A stretch of DNA of 64,000 nt, from the sequence record MN445185.1; one strand, given 5' to 3'. The notes beneath the pieces are model-generated. The model did no database searches, was not told the DNA's origin, and was given only the letters and a program-made list of their open reading frames with translations. This document shows positions 28,671-52,604 of the stretch, piece after piece (the first letter of the stretch is position 1; each line of letters opens with the position of its first letter). A program made the translations under genes and the position numbers. The stretch comes from Escherichia phage vB_EcoM_EC001.

Positions 28671-29131
28671 TGAAGATTATTACCATAGTGGGGCCAGACA
28701 CGGCTAACGGCAGGAAATATTCCACAGATATCCTCGCGCTTTATAACGAGCTGGACAAAAGCGAAATAGAAAGCTATCGAAAAGAGACGGGTATTAATGT
28801 CCGTTTTACGCCGGCTAAATCGTTAGCCGAGCGCTTCCGGGGTCGTTTACTGGCGGTCGTGGACGACGGTGTCTTGTATGGCTTTGCGCAATACCGCACG
28901 ATGACTGAAGAGGGTGTGACGATGATGTCGGTATCCTCACTGGTCGTTAGCAGCAGCGCACGTGGTAAAGGTTACGGCACCGCGTTGATGGATGCGGTAA
29001 AGAAATCCGCAACGGAAAAAGGGTGTACAGTTGTTCACCTGTCCGTGAACGCCGGTAACGCTGCCGCGAAGTCGCTCTACGACAAAGCTGGCTTTAAGGT
29101 AGGTGCTTACCAGATGTATTGGAGGGTGTGA
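28670..29131 (+). CDS. GNAT-family N-acetyltransferase (tandem paralogue 1)
   Basis: motif A SSARGKGYGTALMDAV, motif B NAGNAAAKSLYDKAGF; N-terminus MKIITIVGPDTANGRKY parallels the next gene. Confidence 0.7.
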   Translation: MKIITIVGPDTANGRKYSTDILALYNELDKSEIESYRKETGINVRFTPAKSLAERFRGRLLAVVDDGVLYGFAQYRTMTEEGVTMMSVSSLVVSSSARGKGYGTALMDAVKKSATEKGCTVVHLSVNAGNAAAKSLYDKAGFKVGAYQMYWRV

Positions 29132-31200: not shown

Positions 31201-31291
31201 GCAAAAATTACGTTTCATCCTTAGCATATGCTAGAAGCCGTTGTGAGTCGGTTAAAACTCACCAACTTAAACTTAAAAGCGAGTAAACAAA

Positions 31292-32056
31292 ATGTCAAAA
31301 CTCAATAAAGCAGCAACCAAAGAATGGCTTTCCGTACCTACCGCAGATGGTCAGTATCGCTACGTATTCACGTATGACGAAAATGACCTGACGGCAAAAG
31401 GTATTCCGCACATGTTAAGTCACAAACTGATTAACAGCGTGACCGGTGCCACCTTAGTAGGTTCCGGCGGAAGGACAATCTTTTGTGCCCCCAGTTGGGA
31501 TCAAACTGAACTGACCAAGAAAATGCTCGGTGAACTCCGGGCGGTTTCCGCACGTCTGTTCTTTAAGCTGATTGCCAGAAAACCGGCGCTATGGGATGCA
31601 TGGTCTCAACACAATCTCGAGGCATTGCGTGGGGAGTGTCTGAATTACGTATTGGTCGAAGAAGTGATTGATAACTTCTTCGCTAACGTGATGAAAACCG
31701 AACGACTGCGTAAGCCGAACACCGACGGTTATTCGTTTGTCTCCGTTAAGAGCAGCGAACTGATTCGGGGTGAGTTTGCAGGGCATGTCCTTTCGGTAAC
31801 TCGGAACCTGAGTTTCTTTGGCCAGCCTTTCAGTGAGCCAGTTGTTCAGGTAACTTATGATTTCCGTTTACCGTTTACTGTTCGGAATGAGTTTGACCCA
31901 GGTCAAGTTTCGTTGAAGTTTTTATATCCTCTCCAGTCATGGCCGTTATTGAAGAGGTTCTTAGCTGAGCCCCGTGTAGCTGCGGTGCTGCAAGCGTGGA
32001 TTGATTCATGGCCAGAAGGCATTGAGGAAAAATCGAAAACGCGAGTTGACTTCTAA
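31292..32056 (+). CDS. hypothetical protein
   Basis: 254-aa ORF. Confidence 0.55.
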   Translation: MSKLNKAATKEWLSVPTADGQYRYVFTYDENDLTAKGIPHMLSHKLINSVTGATLVGSGGRTIFCAPSWDQTELTKKMLGELRAVSARLFFKLIARKPALWDAWSQHNLEALRGECLNYVLVEEVIDNFFANVMKTERLRKPNTDGYSFVSVKSSELIRGEFAGHVLSVTRNLSFFGQPFSEPVVQVTYDFRLPFTVRNEFDPGQVSLKFLYPLQSWPLLKRFLAEPRVAAVLQAWIDSWPEGIEEKSKTRVDF

Positions 32057-32063
32057 GTAAGCT

Positions 32064-32098
32064 AGGCACTCTTCGGAGTGCCTATTATTTTTTTTCTT
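32064..32098 (+). terminator. rho-independent terminator (UUCG loop)
   Basis: AGGCACTC-TTCG-GAGTGCCT then TATTATTTTTTTT. Confidence 0.85.
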
Positions 32099-35758: not shown

Positions 35759-36577
35759 GTGATAAGACCAATTTTAAAATGGATGGGTGGTAAGAGTCGT
35801 GTACTGCCCGAGCTGCTACAGGTGTTTCCGGATGCTGAGTATTTCGTTGAACCTTTTGTGGGCGCAGGGTCAGTGTTTTTAAACACTAAATACCCGAACT
35901 ATATTCTCGGCGACACGAACCCGGACTTAATCGAGTTACTGACCATGGCGCGCGATCGTCCGGAAGCGCTGATTCTGGAAGCAAAGGCGCTCTTTGCAAA
36001 TGGGACGGACCGCGGTCTGTACATGAAACGGCGTGAGGAATTTAACAGCGAGACAACCACGGGGAAACCTAATCTCCAGCGCGCCGCGATGTTCCTGTAT
36101 CTTACACGTCATGGTTACAATGGTTTGTGCAGATACAATCAGTCGGGTGGGTTTAACGTGCCCTATGGTCAACACCCGAACGGTGTCTATTTCCCTGAAG
36201 AGGAAATTCTGGCGTGGGCAAAACGTTGTTCGGAAACCAACGTCGAGCTGCTCTGCGCGGACTTCCGCGATATCCTAAATAAATGCCCATCTAACGCTGT
36301 GATATACGCTGACCCGCCCTATATCCCTCTTTCGGATACGGCTAAACACGCGCAGTATCACAGCAAAGAATTTTCACAAGCTGACCACCGCGAGTTAGCG
36401 AAACTTTTAAAACAACAAGCTGCCGATGGCAATAAGGTCGTTCTGTCAAACGCAGATACGTTACTCACACGCGATATTTATTACGGCTTTACTTGGCGCG
36501 AAGTTCAGGTAGGTCGATATATGTCTGCGGATGCGAATAAGCGTAAAGCGGTGACGGAGCTAATCGGCACCTTATAA
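35759..36577 (+). CDS. dam: DNA adenine methyltransferase (Dam family, expected GATC specificity)
   Basis: ILKWMGGK vs E. coli Dam FLKWAGGK; FVEPFVGAGSVFLN identical block; catalytic DPPY; LYLTRHGYNGLCRYN vs LFLYLNRYGYNGLCRYN. Confidence 0.85.
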   Translation: MIRPILKWMGGKSRVLPELLQVFPDAEYFVEPFVGAGSVFLNTKYPNYILGDTNPDLIELLTMARDRPEALILEAKALFANGTDRGLYMKRREEFNSETTTGKPNLQRAAMFLYLTRHGYNGLCRYNQSGGFNVPYGQHPNGVYFPEEEILAWAKRCSETNVELLCADFRDILNKCPSNAVIYADPPYIPLSDTAKHAQYHSKEFSQADHRELAKLLKQQAADGNKVVLSNADTLLTRDIYYGFTWREVQVGRYMSADANKRKAVTELIGTL

Positions 36578-40083: not shown

Positions 40084-40123
40084 CCCTACCTAACTTCGGT
40101 TAGGTAGGGTTCTTTTTATTTTT
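40084..40123 (+). terminator. rho-independent terminator (UUCG loop)
   Basis: CCCTACCTAAC-TTCG-GTTAGGTAGGG then T-run. Confidence 0.85.
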
Positions 40124-40624: not shown

Positions 40625-41095
40625 ATGCCAGTTTTATACGGCGGCGTGGACCTGGATGTTCTGGGTCGGTTTAAACTACGAACGTCTAAGGCGCTCGTAA
40701 ACGGTTGGGTTGAGAAAGGCGTACGGGATGCGTGTGAGGTCATTTGTAGTTATCCTGGTGCCACGACAATGTGGTCGTGTCATGGACACGGACCATATTC
40801 TAAAAAGAACACACCGGGGGAATTTCATGTGGTGTTCGTTCTTGGCATCGGCTTTGAACACAAAGCACATGAGCTTGTCGCTGAGTTAATGAAAGCGGAT
40901 ATTCCGCCACTGTGGGATTTGTGCATGGCGAGACTCTTGTACCCTGATGAGGATTTCGTCTACGACCTCAGCGAGATCACCCTGAAGAACACGTATAACG
41001 CATGGAAAATAACGTATCGGCATCTGCATACCGAACAAACTCTTCGCGAAATTCGTAAAGTATTCCACACTGTCTGTAAAAAGGTTTTTAACTAA
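40625..41095 (+). CDS. hypothetical protein
   Basis: AAGGAG ribosome-binding site; 156 aa. Confidence 0.55.
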   Translation: MPVLYGGVDLDVLGRFKLRTSKALVNGWVEKGVRDACEVICSYPGATTMWSCHGHGPYSKKNTPGEFHVVFVLGIGFEHKAHELVAELMKADIPPLWDLCMARLLYPDEDFVYDLSEITLKNTYNAWKITYRHLHTEQTLREIRKVFHTVCKKVFN

Positions 41096-41793
41096 TGGCT
41101 AAGCAAAAGAAACCCCGTAACAAAAAGTATAACCCAAAAGCTGCTACAGAGCGTACAGCGCACACCATCGCTGAAAACGCGCTGAACCGCATCACCTTTA
41201 TTGGCAGCTCCATTCGTCGCCTCGGACCGTACGCGGGCCGTGGTTTTCACTTTACGGCAAGTCCTCGTATTCGTGCTATCGCCACAGATATGTTAGTCGG
41301 TGGGCTGTTCGACCAACCGCGACCATGGCATCTTTGGGTGATGCACCTCACTGAACTCGACACCGGTGAAATTGTAACAGAAACCGCAGTTGCCACACTT
41401 GACGATTATACTTTGGCGGACTTCTGTGAACACGCTGAGAAGTTAGTTAAATCGCTACGTCCTGAACAGGAAGAAGGGAAATATTTCGGTTATGCGTTTG
41501 TGGCCGCCCCGAACGAGCGGTACGACTTCAAAGCGGAAGAAGACCAACTCATTGAAAACTTCATGCATTCTGGACTACTTGATACGTCGTTACATCTGTC
41601 GGAAGAACAACAGTTCGTTAGTCGTGCAGAAATGGCCAACCTGCTCGTTGGTTATACTCGGAAGTTTGACGTGACCGTTGAACACGTCAAAGAAGTACCA
41701 GAGATTGTGAGCAAGAAAGACGAGGTGGTGCTTCCGGTTGACGAGGTTGTCAGTAAAGTAGCGACTGCGATAGGGGCAACGGGGGATTACTGA
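41095..41793 (+). CDS. hypothetical protein
   Basis: 232-aa ORF, start overlaps upstream stop. Confidence 0.55.
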   Translation: MAKQKKPRNKKYNPKAATERTAHTIAENALNRITFIGSSIRRLGPYAGRGFHFTASPRIRAIATDMLVGGLFDQPRPWHLWVMHLTELDTGEIVTETAVATLDDYTLADFCEHAEKLVKSLRPEQEEGKYFGYAFVAAPNERYDFKAEEDQLIENFMHSGLLDTSLHLSEEQQFVSRAEMANLLVGYTRKFDVTVEHVKEVPEIVSKKDEVVLPVDEVVSKVATAIGATGDY

Positions 41794-42002
41794 TGAATCT
41801 ACGTTGGCCGATCGCGGCTGCTGTGTTGTTTTGTATTTATATCGCCATCAGCACCAGTACCCGCACTGCAGAACGTCGCGAGACCGCAACCAGTACGTTT
41901 AGGATGTGCATTGACCGCGTAGACCCGAACAGTACCACTTATCCTGACGCGGTGAACGCGTGTCGCAAAGCGGTTGCTGAGATATTGAAAGAGGAAAAAT
42001 AA
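41793..42002 (+). CDS. small membrane protein
   Basis: hydrophobic N-terminus WPIAAAVLFCIYIAIST. Confidence 0.45.
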   Translation: MNLRWPIAAAVLFCIYIAISTSTRTAERRETATSTFRMCIDRVDPNSTTYPDAVNACRKAVAEILKEEK

Positions 42003-42229
42003 TGGAAAACCTTACGCCGATTGAGATAGTGGCGCTATTCGACCGTTACGTATACGGACAAACGCAGGCAAAGAAAATGCTGGCGATTGCGCTACGTAAT
42101 CGATATCGTGCCAATAAACTCAACGTAGTGGACCGTATGTCGGTCCACAAACAGAACCTTTTAATAGAAGGTCCAACAGGCACGGGTAAAACGGCGTTGA
42201 TGCGTGAAGAAAAACAGAAACAAAAGTGA
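42002..42229 (+). CDS. truncated HslU (ClpY)-like AAA+ ATPase N-terminal fragment, 75 aa, ending just after Walker A
   Basis: gap-free manual alignment to E. coli HslU residues 1-70 gives about 33/70 identities, including GQ..AK, AIALRNR and GPTG.GKT; no Walker B or later motifs follow; own AGAGGA ribosome-binding site. Confidence 0.7.
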   Translation: MENLTPIEIVALFDRYVYGQTQAKKMLAIALRNRYRANKLNVVDRMSVHKQNLLIEGPTGTGKTALMREEKQKQK

Positions 42230-42237
42230 GGTAAAGG

Positions 42238-43245
42238 ATGGCGAAGCTCGTTTCGTTTTCAGCAGGGTTGGATTCCACCTGGATAATGTATCAGCTGCTA
42301 TGCAAAGCACCGGCCAATGAAGCACGACATGTCCGTCCTGCGTATTTCTCCATGTGGAATGGAGGTAACGCGAACTTCATGGAAATTCTTTGTAGCGTGG
42401 CCATTGTTGAACGGTTGATGGATAGACACCATGCACAAACCGAACATGTTACATGGGCGGTGCTCGGGGAAGAGAACTTCCAGCCTGTCGTTACCGCTGG
42501 ATATGCTAACGGCTGGTCGCCTCTGGTTCAGCAGGGCAATGTTGTTAACGGTCTCGCTAAACTGATGTGTGGTATTACGCGCAAACAGCACCACGCCTAT
42601 GCAGTTGTTGGTTGGAATAAGCTAGATGCGTTGGAGAATAGTCTAGAGCTGGGAGATTGGACATTAGACGAGTACGCTCGCTTAAAGAACCTCTATAGCG
42701 AATTGATGTATTTCCAAGATCATGCCGGTCGCGTTCCACCGCTTCTAACACCTGCGTGGGATAAAGAGAAACTGGAAATGTGGCAGGAGTTGCCGGAAGA
42801 TATTCGTAGGTTGGTACAGGTCAGTAACAACAACAACTACGAATTCGCGATAGACCGTGAGAATAACGTGCTCATCGTTTATGCCCATCCGTCGGCAAAG
42901 TCGCAGAATTATCGTAGTCTTGGTATTACACCGTCAGTGGGATGGGAGATTAAAATCAACGATGCTTACAGACGGGTATGGTGTTCTGCTCTCGGTAGTG
43001 CTATTTCTGCTATGGGTTTGGGCGTACCGGCTTTTGCTAACTTTAAGGACCCGGAAAGAAACCACACGACCTTTACGGTAAGTGAAGATACTAACCGGTT
43101 ATGTATCACATCGTTTACCGCGGAAGAGTGGTGCGCGTATGCGCCACATTTTAAAGCGCTTCAGGAGAAAGAAAAAGAGATAGCGAAAAATGCCAAAGCA
43201 AGTAAAGCTGTGGACGCTCCAACTGGCGAAGTGGCGGATAGCTGA
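42238..43245 (+). CDS. PP-loop ATP pyrophosphatase-like protein (tentative)
   Basis: N-terminal SFSAGLDST resembles SGGxDS PP-loop; AAGG ribosome-binding site. Confidence 0.35.
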   Translation: MAKLVSFSAGLDSTWIMYQLLCKAPANEARHVRPAYFSMWNGGNANFMEILCSVAIVERLMDRHHAQTEHVTWAVLGEENFQPVVTAGYANGWSPLVQQGNVVNGLAKLMCGITRKQHHAYAVVGWNKLDALENSLELGDWTLDEYARLKNLYSELMYFQDHAGRVPPLLTPAWDKEKLEMWQELPEDIRRLVQVSNNNNYEFAIDRENNVLIVYAHPSAKSQNYRSLGITPSVGWEIKINDAYRRVWCSALGSAISAMGLGVPAFANFKDPERNHTTFTVSEDTNRLCITSFTAEEWCAYAPHFKALQEKEKEIAKNAKASKAVDAPTGEVADS

Positions 43246-43573
43246 AAAACGGAATTTGCCAAAGCTGGATATAACGGTTAAGTCGGGGCTGAAATATTTG
43301 GCACCCGACTGGGACTTTCTGATGGACTACAAGAAGTCTGACAAAGGCCCCGACGCAGAAGCTGCGTATACCAAACGCTACCTGCAGAAACTTAGTCGGT
43401 TGTTTGATGAAGACACTGATAAGTTGATAGAGATTCTCCGCCAGGGCGAGGTCGTACTAATGTGCTATTGCCCACCGGGGAAATTCTGTCATCGCCACTT
43501 GCTAGTTTCTTACCTTATTGAAATCGGTGAGTGGTTCGGTTATGAAGTAATTTACATGGGCGAGTTATCGTAA
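43190..43573 (+). CDS. small protein with CxC...CHRH motif
   Basis: VLMCYCPPGKFCHRHLL; I weakly recall a similar Cys/His pattern in the DUF488 family; start uncertain because of 56-nt overlap. Confidence 0.35.
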   Translation: MPKQVKLWTLQLAKWRIAEKRNLPKLDITVKSGLKYLAPDWDFLMDYKKSDKGPDAEAAYTKRYLQKLSRLFDEDTDKLIEILRQGEVVLMCYCPPGKFCHRHLLVSYLIEIGEWFGYEVIYMGELS

Positions 43574-43584
43574 GGAGAGTCCTC

Positions 43585-43980
43585 GTGAAATTGATTATGC
43601 CTAAAACCGTTCCTAATCAGGATATGGTTACGACTACACTGTTTTCTGAATCATTACGCAACTCTGTACGTCAGACCGCTTCACGTCTAGACGTGGCAGT
43701 TGAAGAACTCGACCCAGAAGTCTTCATGAAGTATGCGTTTATTGCAGAAGGTTACGCGATCGCCCTGAGTTATGCGCGGTATGTCGATGACGTGACAGAA
43801 GCTAAACGTTATTTAGAAGGCTGTTGTCAAGTTTTCCGTGAAGAAATCACCGAGATGGAGATGGTTGACCGTGGCTTACCTGAATTTGTAAAGGTGGGTT
43901 ACGATAAGCTGTTGCAATCCATCGCGGATGAGATCAAACGTCGCGGGTTAACTGTTGTGCACAGTGCTACACTGCACTAA
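43585..43980 (+). CDS. hypothetical protein
   Basis: AGGAG then GTG; 131 aa. Confidence 0.5.
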   Translation: MKLIMPKTVPNQDMVTTTLFSESLRNSVRQTASRLDVAVEELDPEVFMKYAFIAEGYAIALSYARYVDDVTEAKRYLEGCCQVFREEITEMEMVDRGLPEFVKVGYDKLLQSIADEIKRRGLTVVHSATLH

Positions 43981-43994
43981 CAGCGTACGAGTAG

Positions 43995-44033
43995 GCTACC
44001 ACACGATCATATGTGTGGTAGCTTATTTTTTTG
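43995..44033 (+). terminator. rho-independent terminator
   Basis: GCTACCACAC...GTGTGGTAGC stem then TTATTTTTTTG. Confidence 0.8.
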
Positions 44034-44048
44034 TTTCTGGAGGCGTTA

Positions 44049-44588
44049 ATGGCAGACCGCTATCAGCCCGACCTAACACTGAGTTCAAAAGCGCTAGTCT
44101 TAGCGCTTATCAATCATGACAATAATCTGTCACTTACTGATAAAGAGATTGTGATTAGGGATATTGATGCGAACGCTTCACCAGACATCATCCCGAAGAA
44201 CACACAGGCAAGCGTGGCCAAAGCACGTAAGCCAAATGGGAAAACCGTGACAGTCTATTATGACCGGTTAAGTGCGTCTACCGTGCTAGACAGTTTTCAG
44301 CCGCTATTGGTGTCCTTAGACGGAACCGAAACGGACATTCAGCAAATTGCCAGTGTGATTAACGGTTACTGCGGTACAAACTTGTCAGCAGCAGACTTAC
44401 AGTCTGCGCCAATCGTGGTCAGCGACGATTTTACCCTGGTGAATATCACTGGCGATTCCCCAGCATGGCTTGGGACATTTATCGCAACCCTGTTTACCAA
44501 AAATGAGTACGTTCTTTCAACTGACACTGACACGGTGCTGTGTCTGGATGAGAACACTGTGCTCGTACTGACTGACGAGGAAGAGTAA
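44049..44588 (+). CDS. outlying member of the N-module-A paralogue family (see 53644-64000)
   Basis: LVLALINHDNN ... TVTVYYDRLSASTVL matches the family N-module pattern. Confidence 0.55.
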   Translation: MADRYQPDLTLSSKALVLALINHDNNLSLTDKEIVIRDIDANASPDIIPKNTQASVAKARKPNGKTVTVYYDRLSASTVLDSFQPLLVSLDGTETDIQQIASVINGYCGTNLSAADLQSAPIVVSDDFTLVNITGDSPAWLGTFIATLFTKNEYVLSTDTDTVLCLDENTVLVLTDEEE

Positions 44589-45073
44589 TGGCCAGCCCAG
44601 TTAAAAAGCAAACATTTGAGAGCTTACCATTTTATACCGATATCACCAACGTGAAAGATGGGATGTTCTTGTTTATCAAAGATGGGAAAGCGTATCAGTA
44701 CCCGCTCGAGATGTTGGGTGTCCAGAAGGTTGCTCAGGGTGTCGTTATTCGTGATGCGGCGTATGAGTTGGAAGCGGCAGCAGCCACTGATTGGTACCTA
44801 GGACTGTCGCAACCGGAAACCGATCTCACTATTAAACCTGATGGAGTATTGGGGGCATTTCGGTACACGCTCAACCTGACTATTCTTCAGGGAACGGGAG
44901 CCAACAAAATTAACTGGCCTTCCAACGTGAAGTTCCCCCATGATGCATACCCGGTGCTGTCGTACCAGAAAGGGAAATCGGACATGATTACCCTGACTAC
45001 AATCGACGGCGGTTACACCTGGAAAGGTGGCGTTAGTGGAACAGGATATACAGAATGGGTAGAAACTCCTTAA
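44588..45073 (+). CDS. hypothetical protein, likely tail or fibre-associated
   Basis: 161-aa ORF between a family member and the 1005-aa protein. Confidence 0.5.
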   Translation: MASPVKKQTFESLPFYTDITNVKDGMFLFIKDGKAYQYPLEMLGVQKVAQGVVIRDAAYELEAAAATDWYLGLSQPETDLTIKPDGVLGAFRYTLNLTILQGTGANKINWPSNVKFPHDAYPVLSYQKGKSDMITLTTIDGGYTWKGGVSGTGYTEWVETP

Positions 45074-51346: not shown

Positions 51347-52150
51347 ATGTTAAAGCCACGCAAACAGAAAAGATTACAGTTTGTCAAAATAGTACATCCA
51401 CAGTCCCGTCGTGTTACAGGTGGACGTCTCTACGTGGGTAAACACCGTAGTCGTCTTATCACCTGGTCGGCAATGGCCAACGTAGCCACCCAACTCCAGG
51501 CAATGGTTGAAGACCGTTGCCAGTTAAAAGGGGATTTCTTTCAAGAGAAGAAACCCTATCGTGATATCTTCCGTACACTAAAAGCGTGCTGGGTACTCAG
51601 CTGGGTGCCTGGCCGCGAACAACTTTATTTTCTGCGTAAGTTCCCACGCCCTATGCCGAAGGAAAACATTAGCGTTTTCTTAGACAAACTAAAACGCTTT
51701 AATGACATCGGCATAAACGCTAATAAAGAGCAGGTTTCTGCTACAGTAGCAGCCCGAAAACACTTACGCGATTATGTGGCCGATCGAGATGTTGAGTTCG
51801 CTTATATGACGCCGACTGTACCGCTGCTAAACGGTGATGCATCGAAAGCGAAGATGGAAGAGATCGCGTTGAAGTTTCCTAACATCAGACACATCGCACC
51901 AGACGCGGTACTACAGCTGAACACTGAAGGCTGCACGCGTTTACCGACAGTCTCTGACACGGTGTTAGTATCAACACCTGATGTTCCTGATGGAAAGTCG
52001 TTCCTTGAAATGATAAAGAAACGTACAGAGGGTGGATATCAACCGATCTTTCTGGATTCCCTTTCACAACATCCTGAAGTAGAACAAGAATTTAACATGA
52101 ACACTAACAGCCCTTACGACTCCCTATACAAGGACGATAATGATGCTTAA
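51347..52150 (+). CDS. hypothetical protein
   Basis: AAGGAG ribosome-binding site; 267 aa. Confidence 0.55.
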   Translation: MLKPRKQKRLQFVKIVHPQSRRVTGGRLYVGKHRSRLITWSAMANVATQLQAMVEDRCQLKGDFFQEKKPYRDIFRTLKACWVLSWVPGREQLYFLRKFPRPMPKENISVFLDKLKRFNDIGINANKEQVSATVAARKHLRDYVADRDVEFAYMTPTVPLLNGDASKAKMEEIALKFPNIRHIAPDAVLQLNTEGCTRLPTVSDTVLVSTPDVPDGKSFLEMIKKRTEGGYQPIFLDSLSQHPEVEQEFNMNTNSPYDSLYKDDNDA

Positions 52151-52532
52151 GCCTAAGAAACGTAAAGATGGTGCGGTCATTTTCTCTCCGAGAATCGCTG
52201 TAGCAGTTGGTAAGAAATTACTGGTCCAGGACGGTAAGTGGGTCAGTGACGGATTCAGTCAGTACACCTCGCTATGCATCTCTTCCGAGATGAATCAGAT
52301 GCACGGGAAGAAAGTACGTGACCGACGATCTCAGATGCCAAAAGTTATCCGTGTTGTGGCCGGCTGGTATAAGCGATACATGAAAAAGAACTTCCCACAC
52401 GCAGCGCCGCCGTTTGAAGAAGGGTCTTTTGTTCGTACAGAACCCACCGAAGCGGGTGGCGAATTACCGGTGCGTACCGGCACGGCGTATTCGACGCTGA
52501 CTTCCTTGTGTCGTCAGTCGTACGAAAAGTAG
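52140..52532 (+). CDS. hypothetical basic protein
   Basis: 130-aa ORF. Confidence 0.5.
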   Translation: MMLKPKKRKDGAVIFSPRIAVAVGKKLLVQDGKWVSDGFSQYTSLCISSEMNQMHGKKVRDRRSQMPKVIRVVAGWYKRYMKKNFPHAAPPFEEGSFVRTEPTEAGGELPVRTGTAYSTLTSLCRQSYEK

Positions 52533-52604
52533 AAGGCGTTGAAGGACACTCTACTCCACATCAACTAGGATGACGCTTATCCCAAGGGTAGCGAATAAAG
52601 CAGT

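What the first reader, a model, noticed from the sequence alone, without database searches (positions are those of the whole stretch)
42238..43573. PP-loop ATPase-like gene and CxC...CHRH small protein directly downstream of the HslU fragment
The product of 42238-43245 begins SFSAGLDST, a degenerate version of the SGGxDS PP-loop of ATP pyrophosphatases (QueC, PAPS reductase, DndC-like enzymes), several of which act in nucleic-acid modification. It overlaps a 127-aa ORF with VLMCYCPPGKFCHRHLL, a Cys/His pattern I weakly recall from DUF488. With Dam about 7 kb upstream, this could be part of a DNA or tRNA modification function.
Basis: partly seen in the sequence, partly recalled or inferred. Interest (0 to 1): 0.4.

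Follow-up and report, generated by a model that had tools for sequence, protein, structure and literature searches.

The report
QueC-like ATPase and DUF488 gene pair
Two overlapping accessory genes of an SPN3US-like giant Salmonella phage encode a stripped-down relative of the QueC family of ATP-using enzymes and a small DUF488 enzyme of the rhodanese/phosphatase fold; both are real and conserved, but nothing ties them to DNA modification or to the nearby Dam gene.

Summary
The window comes from a Seoulvirus (SPN3US-like nucleus-forming jumbo phage). It carries a 335-aa ORF (42238-43245) and a 127-aa ORF (43190-43573) that overlap by 56 nt, just after a 75-aa HslU-like stub.

The 335-aa protein has the PP-loop ATP-pyrophosphatase fold and sits nearest QueC/Cap9. 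It keeps the ATP-binding elements but lacks every QueC substrate and zinc motif, and it has its own ~150-aa C-terminal domain. Its family is small and was found only in jumbo phages.

The 127-aa protein is a bona fide DUF488-N3a (PF22751) with an invariant CxC...CHR loop. That family is large, occurs as a standalone protein in many phages, and includes phiKZ gp151.

The two genes are neighbours only in the SPN3US/Erwinia clade. Elsewhere each occurs without the other. Both are under purifying selection and lie in one terminator-bounded operon that excludes Dam. SPN3US has no annotated 7-deazaguanine pathway partner.

Most likely these are two independent, co-expressed enzymes acting on nucleotide-like substrates in phage-host conflict. 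Their substrates are unknown. The fold assignments are solid; the "modification system with Dam" idea is unsupported. Interest is moderate.

The parts
42238..43245 (+). Gene for a 335-aa QueC-like PP-loop ATPase (SPN3US gp119 orthologue, phrog_8825)
   Evidence: ORF. phrog_8825 E 2.4e-135. No Pfam hit. AF2 model pLDDT 84.4, pTM 0.86. Foldseek PDB hits GMP synthase, LarE, YcfA and TtuA at E ~1e-4. Family profile against Cap9 9nto E 2.2e-5 and QueC 2pg3 E 2.2e-3. hhalign to E. coli QueC probability 94%. dN/dS 0.13.
42238..42789 (+). PP-loop (QueC-like) catalytic core, residues 1-184
   Evidence: hhalign aligns residues 1-184 to E. coli QueC 2-171. The model shows beta1-loop-alpha1 Rossmann-like topology. 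Invariant or near-invariant residues: G10, S13, E49, Q98, G125, W126, D130, P172, W174, K178.
42259..42279 (+). PP-loop motif S8-A-G-L-D-S-T14 (variant of SGGxDS[T])
   Evidence: Read directly from the sequence. Across 42 representatives: S/T8 42/42, G10 42/42, D/E12 42/42, S13 42/42; Ala at position 9 in 6/42. It maps onto QueC S9-G-G-Q-D-S14.
42820..43212 (+). Family-specific C-terminal alpha/beta domain plus long helix (residues ~195-325), which replaces the Zn-binding module of QueC
   Evidence: AF2 secondary structure has strands at 201-206, 211-216, 235-239, 280-282 and 290-293 and a helix at 295-325. QueC residues 186-204 have no aligned counterpart. K221 is invariant and Y225 and G229 are conserved. 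No alignment column has 30% or more Cys.
43190..43573 (+). Gene for a 127-aa DUF488-N3a protein (SPN3US gp120 orthologue; phiKZ gp151 homologue)
   Evidence: PF22751 E 7.3e-12 and PF04343 E 2.9e-6, both above gathering score. AF2 pLDDT 95.9. tblastn shows 39% identity to PHIKZ151, which itself hits PF22751 at E 2e-9. 1458 clusters at E<=1e-3; all of the best 120 listed are 118-151 aa and single-domain.
43463..43495 (+). Putative active-site strand-loop-helix C92-Y-C94-P-P-G-K-F-C100-H101-R102
   Evidence: C92, C94, F99, C100, H101 and R102 are invariant in 19 diverse homologues. In the model the strand at 87-92 ends at C92 and the helix at 101-115 starts at H101/R102. This is the geometry of the Cys...Arg loop of rhodanese/phosphatase-fold enzymes (inference).
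43190..43245 (+). 56-nt overlap of the two genes in different frames
   Evidence: Zero substitutions in this stretch relative to SPN3US and phage 1252. Overlaps are also annotated in Caitlin and read from tblastn coordinates in Stratton, ChrisDB and SPAsTU.
42002..42229 (+). 75-aa chimeric remnant of an HslU/ClpX-like AAA+ gene (a deletion scar, probably not functional)
   Evidence: HslU profile positions 1-65 of 441. phrog_4339 positions 2-70 of 552. Phage 1252 has the intact 586-aa gene plus a 110-aa gene. Alignment shows a 1956-bp deletion.
42196..42204 (.). Deletion junction: the single remaining copy of the 9-bp direct repeat GTTGATGCG
   Evidence: Window 41700-42204 aligns to L003 2201-2705 and window 42196-42400 aligns to L003 4653-4857. 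The repeat is present at both L003 2697-2705 and 4653-4661.
43585..43980 (+). Last gene of the operon, 131 aa, unknown function (phrog_17719)
   Evidence: GTG start preceded by AAGGAG.
43989..44028 (+). Intrinsic-terminator-like hairpin (17 pairs plus a T-run) closing the operon
40084..40109 (+). Intrinsic-terminator-like hairpin (11 pairs plus a T-run) upstream of the operon, separating it from the Dam-containing unit
   Evidence: Dam lies at 35783-36577.

Best explanation
These are two genuine, co-transcribed accessory enzymes of a Seoulvirus, the orthologues of SPN3US gp119 and gp120. The 335-aa protein is a divergent PP-loop ATP pyrophosphatase of the QueC/Cap9 branch. Its ATP-binding and adenylation machinery is intact (PP-loop, G125, D130, K178). 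The QueC substrate pocket and Zn module are replaced by family-specific invariant residues (Q98-Q99, W126, P172/W174, K221/Y225/G229) and a new C-terminal domain. By analogy with every characterised PP-loop enzyme, I infer that it adenylates a carboxylate or carbonyl on a substrate other than 7-carboxy-7-deazaguanine and hands it to a nucleophile, releasing AMP and PPi. The 127-aa protein is a standalone DUF488-N3a enzyme of the rhodanese/phosphatase fold. I infer that its invariant CxC...CHR loop acts on a phosphate carried by a ribose, nucleotide or nucleic-acid end. Shown: the folds, the motif status, the gene overlap, the operon boundaries, purifying selection and the phyletic distribution. 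Inferred: the chemistry of each enzyme; that the two act independently or only loosely together; and that their role is modulation of infection or counter-defence rather than hypermodification of phage DNA.
For: Fold and family of the 335-aa protein: AF2 pLDDT 84.4. Foldseek PDB hits are GMP synthase, LarE, YcfA and TtuA at E ~1e-4. BFVD hits are phage 'QueC' and adenine-alpha-hydrolase proteins. The family profile hits Cap9 at E 2.2e-5 and QueC at E 2.2e-3 and 6.4e-3. hhalign to E. coli QueC gives probability 94%. Nine of 42 family members hit Pfam QueC. The ATP motifs are kept and the QueC-specific motifs are lost (motif definitions from PMC13329287). DUF488-N3a is above the Pfam threshold, has an invariant Cys/His/Arg loop and gives a very confident model. 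Independence of the two genes: there are 1458 DUF488-N3a clusters, and all of the best 120 listed are standalone. No PP-loop gene was seen within 5-6 kb in phiKZ, Noxifer and FBKp24 (HMM scan) or in the called genes of three other phage contigs. No DUF488 was seen within 4-8 kb of the PP-loop homologues in SA002, EL, Miami and L011/L012. Co-expression: one operon lies between the terminators at 40084-40109 and 43989-44028, with a 56-nt overlap. Both genes are functional by dN/dS. Phenotype of a homologue: antisense knock-down of PhiKZ151 raised PFU about 10-fold and strongly changed phage transcript levels at 30 min; the gene was listed as non-core (PMC12571901). The sister clade DUF4326 was described as a rhodanese-phosphatase clade predicted to process terminal phosphates on the ribose of ADP-ribose derivatives (PMC9503650).
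Against: No substrate is identified for either enzyme, so all the chemistry rests on analogy. The tight overlap is retained across Seoulvirus, SPAsTU/STsAS, Machinavirus and Stratton-like phages. The two genes also stay within about 3 kb after a rearrangement in Wellingtonvirus and two metagenomic relatives. That argues for some functional link that this explanation plays down. The three invariant Cys plus His of DUF488-N3a could bind a structural metal or carry a persulfide rather than form a phosphatase-type nucleophile. Foldseek found no significant solved relative (best E 7.7e-3; RapZ TM 0.48 at E 0.21). I could not read the paper that defined DUF488-N3a (Burroughs & Aravind 2023). It may already describe a partnership or a different prediction.
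Confidence: 0.5

Rival explanations
1. A coupled two-enzyme modification module resembling ThiI. The PP-loop enzyme adenylates a nucleobase carbonyl in tRNA, RNA, DNA or a free nucleotide. The Cys-rich DUF488, which has a rhodanese-superfamily fold, delivers sulfur as a persulfide or otherwise completes the reaction. The product would be a thiolated or amidated base.
For: Several top structural neighbours are sulfur-inserting PP-loop enzymes (LarE, YcfA of 6-thioguanine synthesis, TtuA). PP-loop plus rhodanese is the known ThiI architecture (established knowledge). The DUF488 loop has three invariant Cys. The genes overlap by 56 nt and remain neighbours after rearrangement in Kwan, L009 and L024.
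Against: The pairing is confined to one clade, and each family occurs widely without the other. The PP-loop family has no conserved Cys or Fe-S ligands. The related DUF4326 clade is predicted to process phosphates, not sulfur. PP-loop folds always retrieve thiolases, so that resemblance is not specific. No modified base is reported or tested.
Confidence: 0.2
2. A Cap9/QatC-like protein-conjugating enzyme, or a phage antagonist or mimic of QueC-family defence. The PP-loop enzyme would ligate a carboxylated small molecule to a protein amine. In ancestral phages it might have cooperated with the neighbouring HslU-like unfoldase and a small protease-like protein.
For: The best solved sequence relative of the family profile is Cap9 (E 2.2e-5). 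QueC-family enzymes do catalyse protein-nucleobase conjugation (PMC13329287). In phage 1252, Caitlin, Kwan and L009 the gene sits within a few kb of an orthologous HslU-like AAA+ gene (44% identity between 1252 and L009). In Caitlin and Kwan it also sits near an S80-protease-like small protein (phrog_7478).
Against: Cap9 retains the canonical QueC motifs and the Zn site, and QatC retains a Zn variant. This family has neither. The Cap9 match covers only the PP-loop region, profile positions 8-55. The AAA+ gene is deleted in this window and replaced in SPN3US while the pair persists under purifying selection. Synteny among related phages is weak evidence of functional linkage.
Confidence: 0.1
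3. A canonical QueC making preQ0 for 7-deazaguanine modification of phage DNA, part of a DNA-modification region that includes Dam.
For: One metagenomic homologue and several structural relatives in phages are annotated '7-cyano-7-deazaguanine synthase'. Dam lies 5.7 kb upstream. The host makes CDG (established knowledge).
Against: QueC residues Y35 and R99, each shown essential by Ala substitution, and Y131, whose aromatic ring is required, map to M39, G100 and G139. The whole Zn motif is missing. The family has no conserved Cys. The window protein gives no Pfam QueC hit. No DpdA, TGT, FolE or QueD is annotated anywhere in SPN3US. Dam is in a different terminator-bounded unit.
Confidence: 0.03
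4. Decaying or non-functional leftovers next to a deletion scar.
For: The adjacent AAA+ gene is visibly degraded. The homologue PhiKZ151 is dispensable, and its knock-down even increases plaque yield.
Against: Both ORFs are full length and under purifying selection (dN/dS about 0.13 for the PP-loop gene; few, mostly synonymous changes in DUF488). Catalytic motifs are invariant across deep divergence. Both AF2 models are confident.
Confidence: 0.03

Closest known systems
QueC, 7-cyano-7-deazaguanine synthase (PF06508)
   Same: It has the same PP-loop Rossmann-like core. hhalign gives probability 94% over QueC residues 2-171. The SGGxDS-type loop, G122/D127 (here G125/D130) and K165 (here K178) are conserved.
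   Different: It lacks YxQxHxxE (only the final Glu remains), VPxRN (replaced by an invariant Q98 and near-invariant Q99), YPDC and the C(x)8CxxCxxC zinc site. It carries an unrelated C-terminal domain of about 150 aa with invariant K221. The window protein does not hit the Pfam model.
Cap9 (type IV CBASS) and QatC (QatABCD), QueC-family protein-deazaguanylating enzymes
   Same: Cap9 is the best solved-structure sequence match of the family profile (9nto, E 2.2e-5). These enzymes are a precedent for the QueC scaffold being repurposed in phage-host conflict.
   Different: Cap9 keeps the canonical QueC active-site motifs and the Zn site, and QatC keeps a Zn variant and has its own motifs. None of these are present here. 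This protein is phage-encoded rather than part of a host defence system, and no Cap10/TGT-like or QatB-like partner was seen.
Sulfur-inserting or amidating PP-loop enzymes: LarE, YcfA (6-thioguanine), TtuA, GMP synthase, TilS
   Same: They are the top Foldseek matches (E 1.7e-4 to 3e-3). TilS matches the PP-loop segment. ATP-dependent adenylation chemistry is presumably shared.
   Different: TM-scores are only 0.25-0.35 of the query, so the match is to the core alone. There is no catalytic Cys or Fe-S ligand set, no GATase partner and no tRNA-binding domain.
DUF488 (PF04343), DUF488-N3a subclade (PF22751), including phiKZ gp151
   Same: It is a full-length member above the gathering scores. 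It shares the CxC...CHR signature with 19 diverse homologues. tblastn shows 39% identity to PHIKZ151.
   Different: Nothing distinguishes it from other N3a members except its translational overlap with a PP-loop gene, which phiKZ and most other phages lack.
RapZ C-terminal domain and DUF4326 (rhodanese-phosphatase superfamily)
   Same: There is a weak Pfam hit to DUF4326 (E 0.0079). RapZ gives one of the highest Foldseek TM-scores (0.48). The strand-loop-helix with Cys and Arg matches the superfamily's active-site placement (inference). DUF4326 is predicted to process ribose-linked terminal phosphates of ADPr derivatives (PMC9503650).
   Different: The matches are below significance (E 0.21 for RapZ). 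The loop is C-X7/9-R rather than CX5R. It is not fused to Macro, NADAR or SLOG domains as many DUF4326 proteins are.

Membership tests
PP-loop ATP pyrophosphatase superfamily | N-terminal beta-strand, SGGxDS(T) phosphate-binding loop, then alpha-helix | tested here: met
   The sequence is S8-A-G-L-D-S-T14 after the strand at residues 2-6 and before the helix at 11-23. Across 42 family representatives S/T8, G10, D/E12 and S13 are each 42/42.
PP-loop ATP pyrophosphatase superfamily | Rossmann-like alpha/beta/alpha fold matching solved PP-loop enzymes | tested here: met
   Foldseek PDB hits are GMP synthase, LarE, YcfA and TtuA at probability about 1.0 and E 1.7e-4 to 3e-3. hhalign to QueC gives probability 94%.
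PP-loop ATP pyrophosphatase superfamily | ATP to AMP + PPi activity | not testable with these tools
   This needs a biochemical assay.
QueC (PF06508, canonical preQ0 synthase) | Pfam model hit above the gathering score | tested here: not met
   The window protein has no Pfam hit at E<=1. Only 9 of 42 family representatives hit QueC at E<=0.01, with a best E of 2.4e-6.
QueC (PF06508, canonical preQ0 synthase) | Zinc-binding motif C(x)8CxxCxxC | tested here: not met
   QueC residues 186-204 have no aligned counterpart. No family alignment column has 30% or more Cys. The motif definition comes from PMC13329287.
QueC (PF06508, canonical preQ0 synthase) | Substrate and catalytic motifs YxQxHxxE, VPxRN and YPDC | tested here: not met
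   The mapping is Y35 to M39, Q37 to N41, H39 to G43, R99 to G100 and Y131-P-D-C to G139-D-W-T. Only E42 (E49 here) is kept.
QueC (PF06508, canonical preQ0 synthase) | Pathway context (FolE, QueD, QueE plus TGT or DpdA) | tested here: not met
   None is annotated in the complete SPN3US RefSeq genome. Two generic radical-SAM genes at 140-142 kb are not specifically QueE. This test is annotation-based only.
Cap9/QatC protein-deazaguanylating QueC-like enzymes | Retained Zn-binding Cys motif, and association with a TGT-like Cap10 or with QatA/B/D | tested here: not met
   There is no conserved Cys. The neighbours are unrelated. The profile match to Cap9 is limited to positions 8-55.
DUF488 / DUF488-N3a (PF04343 / PF22751) | Pfam model hits above the gathering scores | tested here: met
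   PF22751 scores 46.1 bits (cut-off 27) and PF04343 scores 28.3 bits (cut-off 22.2).
DUF488 / DUF488-N3a (PF04343 / PF22751) | Conserved Cys...CHR active-site signature ('active' subclade) | tested here: met
   C92, C94, C100, H101 and R102 are invariant in 19 homologues down to 37% identity. The inactive-subclade model N3i hits only at E 0.04.
Rhodanese-phosphatase superfamily | Rossmannoid fold with Cys at the end of a strand and Arg at the start of the following helix | tested here: inconclusive
Obligate PP-loop + DUF488 two-gene system | Conserved co-occurrence and adjacency across lineages | tested here: not met
   The genes are adjacent or overlapping only in the Seoulvirus/SPAsTU/Machinavirus/Stratton-type clade, and near each other in Wellingtonvirus. 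They are more than 100 kb apart in SA002. DUF488 occurs without a nearby PP-loop gene in phiKZ, Noxifer and FBKp24 (HMM scan) and in three other phage contigs (called genes). The PP-loop gene has no DUF488 within 4-8 kb in EL, Miami and L011.

The most novel reading that the evidence does not exclude
In the common ancestor of the SPN3US/Erwinia jumbo-phage clade, four genes formed one module: the QueC-like PP-loop ligase, DUF488-N3a, an HslU-like AAA+ unfoldase and a small S80-protease-like protein. On this reading the module carried out an ATP-dependent covalent tagging or modification reaction. That reaction could be a protein-small-molecule conjugation analogous to Cap9/QatC deazaguanylation, or a base thiolation or amidation on RNA or DNA, coupled to unfolding or proteolysis. 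It would be a phage-encoded counterpart or antagonist of QueC-family immunity. The window's phage would keep only the ligase and DUF488 half.
Probability: 0.1. Interest if true: 0.75.

Novelty: new variant of a known kind. Interest (0 to 1): 0.35.

Why it matters
QueC-family scaffolds were recently shown to have been repurposed for anti-phage defence through protein deazaguanylation by Cap9 and QatC. Here the phage side carries its own small family of QueC-like ATPases. The family has 48 representatives among 1.84 billion proteins and every member I could place is in a jumbo phage. It has lost every QueC substrate and zinc motif and gained a new domain, so it should have a new substrate. Its neighbour, DUF488-N3a, is one of the more widespread uncharacterised small phage enzymes. 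The only experimental handle on it is that knock-down of the phiKZ homologue increases plaque yield and perturbs phage transcription. SPN3US has a working genetic system, so both genes are directly testable. The finding does not overturn anything, and no modified base or defined pathway emerges from the sequence data.

Tried and rejected
- **Single-sequence searches for the 335-aa protein.** Pfam, NCBIfam, PADLOC and PDB gave nothing significant. Only profiles and structure revealed the family.
- **phiKZ gp152 as a hidden PP-loop partner of gp151.** Rejected: hhalign probability 0.9%. Its Noxifer counterpart is annotated as a putative UvsX protein.
- **The 163-aa protein overlapping the PP-loop gene in L009 as a DUF488 paralogue.** Rejected: probability 0.7%.
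- **SPN3US gp117 as a fragment of the HslU-like gene.** Rejected: no similarity. It is a phrog_7478 'head maturation protease'-like protein.
- **The conserved C-terminal tail (D..GEVA.S) of the PP-loop protein as a docking motif.** In this window it lies in the 56-nt overlap with the DUF488 N-terminus (LWTLQLAKWR in the other frame). That is the more likely reason for its conservation (inference).
- **Canonical QueC and deazaguanine DNA modification.** Rejected on motifs and pathway context.
- **IMG/VR scans.** The broad alignment had no usable conserved stretch. The narrow alignment returned only 4 loci.
- **Burroughs & Aravind 2023** (NAR Genom Bioinform lqad029), which defined DUF488-N3a, could not be retrieved.
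- **SPN3US literature** does not mention gp119 or gp120.
- **The two upstream 150/156-aa genes** are not detectable paralogues.
- **Sigma-70 promoter scan** was uninformative: 4 found against 7 expected.
Full report
**Source and observation.** The window is a Seoulvirus, an SPN3US-like nucleus-forming jumbo phage. Region 41000-44600 is 97.4% identical to Salmonella phage JN03, 96.9% to Escherichia phage Lh1B and about 95% to SPN3US.
- a 335-aa ORF at 42238-43245, starting MAKLVSFSAGLDSTW;
- a 127-aa ORF at 43190-43573, containing VVLMCYCPPGKFCHRHLL;
- a 75-aa ORF at 42002-42229 that matches HslU profile positions 1-65 of 441 (E 1.9e-16).

They correspond to SPN3US gp119, gp120 and the gp117 locus. 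The 56-nt overlap is real. ATG 43190 is the only start codon upstream of the conserved, confidently modelled N-terminal strand.

**The 335-aa protein: fold.** Single-sequence searches found nothing in Pfam, NCBIfam, PADLOC or the PDB. The only hit was phrog_8825, of unknown function. The 5.8-billion-protein index returned 17 homologues, nearly all from jumbo-phage genomes or jumbo-sized contigs, with G-L-D-S-T-W invariant. An AlphaFold model built on that alignment is confident (pLDDT 84.4, pTM 0.86). Foldseek against the PDB returned only PP-loop enzymes at the top: GMP synthase, LarE, YcfA and TtuA, at E 1.7e-4 to 3e-3 and probability about 1.0. TM-scores were 0.25-0.35 of the query, so only the N-terminal ~200 residues match. 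Against viral models the hits beyond the family itself were jumbo-phage proteins annotated '7-cyano-7-deazaguanine synthase' or 'adenine alpha hydrolase'.

**The 335-aa protein: family.** An exhaustive profile search of 1.84 billion representatives found only 48 proteins at E<=1e-3. Their consensus N-terminus is AFSGGLDSTY. That broader profile hits Cap9 (9nto, E 2.2e-5) and QueC (2pg3 at 2.2e-3, 3bl5 at 6.4e-3), and more weakly TilS, LarE and a nitrile synthetase. Nine of 42 members hit Pfam QueC. hhalign to E. coli QueC gives probability 94% and E 1.5e-7 over residues 1-184. So the PP-loop call is correct, and the nearest branch is QueC/Cap9.

**Membership in QueC proper fails.** I used the motif set defined and mutationally validated in PMC13329287 and the residue map.
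- Conserved: the PP-loop (S8-A-G-L-D-S13), G125/D130 (QueC G122/D127) and K178 (QueC K165).
- Lost: YxQxHxxE (Y35 to M39, Q37 to N41, H39 to G43; only the Glu survives as E49), VPxRN (R99 to G100; the family instead has an invariant Q98 and near-invariant Q99) and YPDC (to G-D-W-T).
- Absent: the zinc motif has no counterpart. No column of the 42-sequence alignment has 30% or more Cys.

In place of the Zn module there is a domain of about 150 residues, with five strands and a long helix. It contributes invariant K221 and conserved Y225 and G229. The Ala in the second PP-loop position occurs in 6 of 42 representatives, while S/T8, G10, D/E12 and S13 are each 42/42. The motif is therefore a normal variant, not a decayed one. 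I infer an active adenylating enzyme whose substrate is not 7-carboxy-7-deazaguanine.

**The 127-aa protein.** It exceeds the gathering thresholds of PF22751 (DUF488-N3a, 'active' subclade; 46.1 bits) and PF04343 (28.3 bits), with a sub-threshold DUF4326 hit. Nineteen homologues down to 37% identity keep C92, C94, F99, C100, H101 and R102 invariant. The model is very confident (pLDDT 95.9). It places C92 at the end of a strand and H101/R102 at the start of the following helix. That is where rhodanese/phosphatase-fold enzymes carry their Cys...Arg loop (inference). No solved structure matches significantly. RapZ gives one of the highest TM-scores (0.48) but at E 0.21. The family is large: 1458 clusters at E<=1e-3, and all of the best 120 listed are 118-151 aa and single-domain. 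It is found in 289 phage records, including phiKZ gp151, PhiPA3, Ea35-70 and Serratia and Klebsiella jumbo phages.

**What is known about DUF488-N3a.** The only experimental information I found concerns phiKZ gp151. Antisense knock-down of PhiKZ151 increased PFU by about ten-fold and strongly altered phage transcript levels at 30 min. The gene was listed as non-core (PMC12571901). The sister clade DUF4326 is described as a rhodanese-phosphatase clade predicted to process ribose-linked terminal phosphates of ADP-ribose derivatives (PMC9503650). I could not retrieve the paper that defined DUF488-N3a. From memory only, it assigns a RapZ-C/DUF488/DUF4326 clade to sugar, nucleotide or nucleic-acid-end phosphate chemistry.

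**Are the two genes a system?**
- Overlapping or adjacent: Seoulvirus, SPAsTU/STsAS, pEa_SNUABM_29, Stratton/ChrisDB/Caitlin, and the Machina/Huxley type.
- Rearranged but still near: Wellingtonvirus (Kwan) and two metagenomic relatives have PP-loop, a ~165-aa gene, an HslU-like AAA+ gene, a ~107-aa gene, then DUF488. The AAA+ gene is orthologous to that of phage 1252 (44% identity).
- Apart: SA002, where they lie more than 100 kb from each other.
- PP-loop with no DUF488 within 4-8 kb: EL gp200, Miami and contigs L011/L012.
- DUF488 with no PP-loop nearby: phiKZ, Noxifer and FBKp24 by HMM scan within 5-6 kb, and three unrelated phage contigs by their called genes.

The association is therefore lineage-specific. 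It suggests co-expression and perhaps a loose functional link, but not an obligate two-component system.

**Local organisation.** Two strong terminator-like hairpins, at 40084-40109 and 43989-44028, bound an eight-gene unit on the + strand that contains both genes. No other gene of the unit has a Pfam match, apart from sub-threshold AAA-type hits on the HslU-like stub. Dam lies at 35783-36577, outside this unit. The annotated SPN3US genome contains no FolE, QueD, TGT or DpdA. Its two radical-SAM genes are generic by Pfam. Both genes evolve under purifying selection (dN/dS about 0.13 for the PP-loop gene; few, mostly synonymous changes in DUF488).

**The 'HslU fragment'.** It is a deletion scar. 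Relative to phage 1252, which has an intact 586-aa HslU/ClpX-like gene and a 110-aa gene, the window has lost 1956 bp between two copies of GTTGATGCG. The junction is at 42196-42204. The deletion fuses the first 68 codons of the AAA+ gene to the last seven codons of the 110-aa gene. Lh1B carries the same 228-bp stub ORF at this position. SPN3US instead retains only about 14 codons of the AAA+ gene, followed by an unrelated phrog_7478 gene.

**Verdict.** The best-supported reading is two real accessory enzymes. One is a QueC-like PP-loop adenylating enzyme with a new substrate-binding half. The other is a standalone DUF488-N3a enzyme of the rhodanese/phosphatase fold. They are co-transcribed and translationally overlapped in this clade and probably act on nucleotide-like substrates in infection control or counter-defence. 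The chemistry is inferred, not shown. A coupled ThiI-like modification module remains a live rival at about 0.2. A canonical QueC/Dam DNA-modification pathway is essentially excluded. The PP-loop family is a new variant of a known kind, and the DUF488 protein is an ordinary member of a known but uncharacterised family. Interest is moderate (0.35).

Noticed in passing
window 42002-42229, junction 42196-42204: The HslU-like stub is a chimeric ORF. It was created by a 1956-bp deletion between 9-bp direct repeats (GTTGATGCG), which removed most of a 586-aa AAA+ gene and a 110-aa gene that are intact in Salmonella phage 1252. Lh1B carries the same 228-bp stub ORF.
   Followed up: yes
L003 2503-4263 (phage 1252); L013 4362-6104 (Kwan); L014 768-2507 (Caitlin); L015 1186-1677 (SPN3US gp1): Relatives encode a full-length HslU/ClpX-like AAA+ protein (TIGR00390 E 8e-62). 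In Kwan and Caitlin it lies near a small paralogue of the S80 prohead protease (phrog_7478, annotated 'head maturation protease'). SPN3US also annotates an 'HslV family peptidase' as gp1. This may be a phage-encoded unfoldase/peptidase system that is variably lost within Seoulvirus.
   Followed up: partly
L001 4094-4579 (SPN3US gp117 locus) compared with window 42002-42229: The locus between gp116 and gp119 is a replacement hot spot. Phage 1252 has the AAA+ gene plus a 110-aa gene. SPN3US has about 14 AAA+ codons followed by an unrelated 161-aa protease-like gene plus the 110-aa gene. The window has only the stub.
   Followed up: partly
window 40084-40109 and 43989-44028: Two strong intrinsic-terminator-like hairpins (11 and 17 pairs, each followed by a T-run) delimit an eight-gene + strand unit. 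Apart from the PP-loop gene, the DUF488 gene and the HslU-like stub, none of its genes has a recognisable domain.
   Followed up: partly
window 42238-43573 compared with SPN3US and phage 1252: Synonymous divergence drops about eight-fold between the PP-loop gene (dS about 0.20) and the DUF488 gene (dS about 0.025). The 56-nt overlap has no substitutions. This suggests a recombination (mosaic) boundary near the gene junction.
   Followed up: no
window 43190-43245: The apparently conserved C-terminal tail of the PP-loop protein (D..GEVA.S) lies in the 56-nt overlap with the DUF488 N-terminus (LWTLQLAKWR in the other frame). Constraint from that frame is the likely reason for its conservation in this window.
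   Followed up: partly
L017 34025-36140 (SPN3US 140.0-142.1 kb, outside the window): Two adjacent radical-SAM genes (442 and 264 aa) lie on the minus strand near tail-fibre genes. Pfam gives only generic Radical_SAM and Fer4_12 hits. Their function is unknown.
   Followed up: partly
window 28678-29129, 31273-32064, 51784-52576: These stretches of the window did not align to SPN3US in a local blastn. They are probably small indels or replaced genes relative to the type phage.
   Followed up: no
L013 6465-6815 (Kwan gp150): The RefSeq annotation 'putative GIY-YIG catalytic domain protein' for the Kwan DUF488-N3a orthologue looks like a mis-annotation. The A2 profile hits it at E 1.4e-49.
   Followed up: partly
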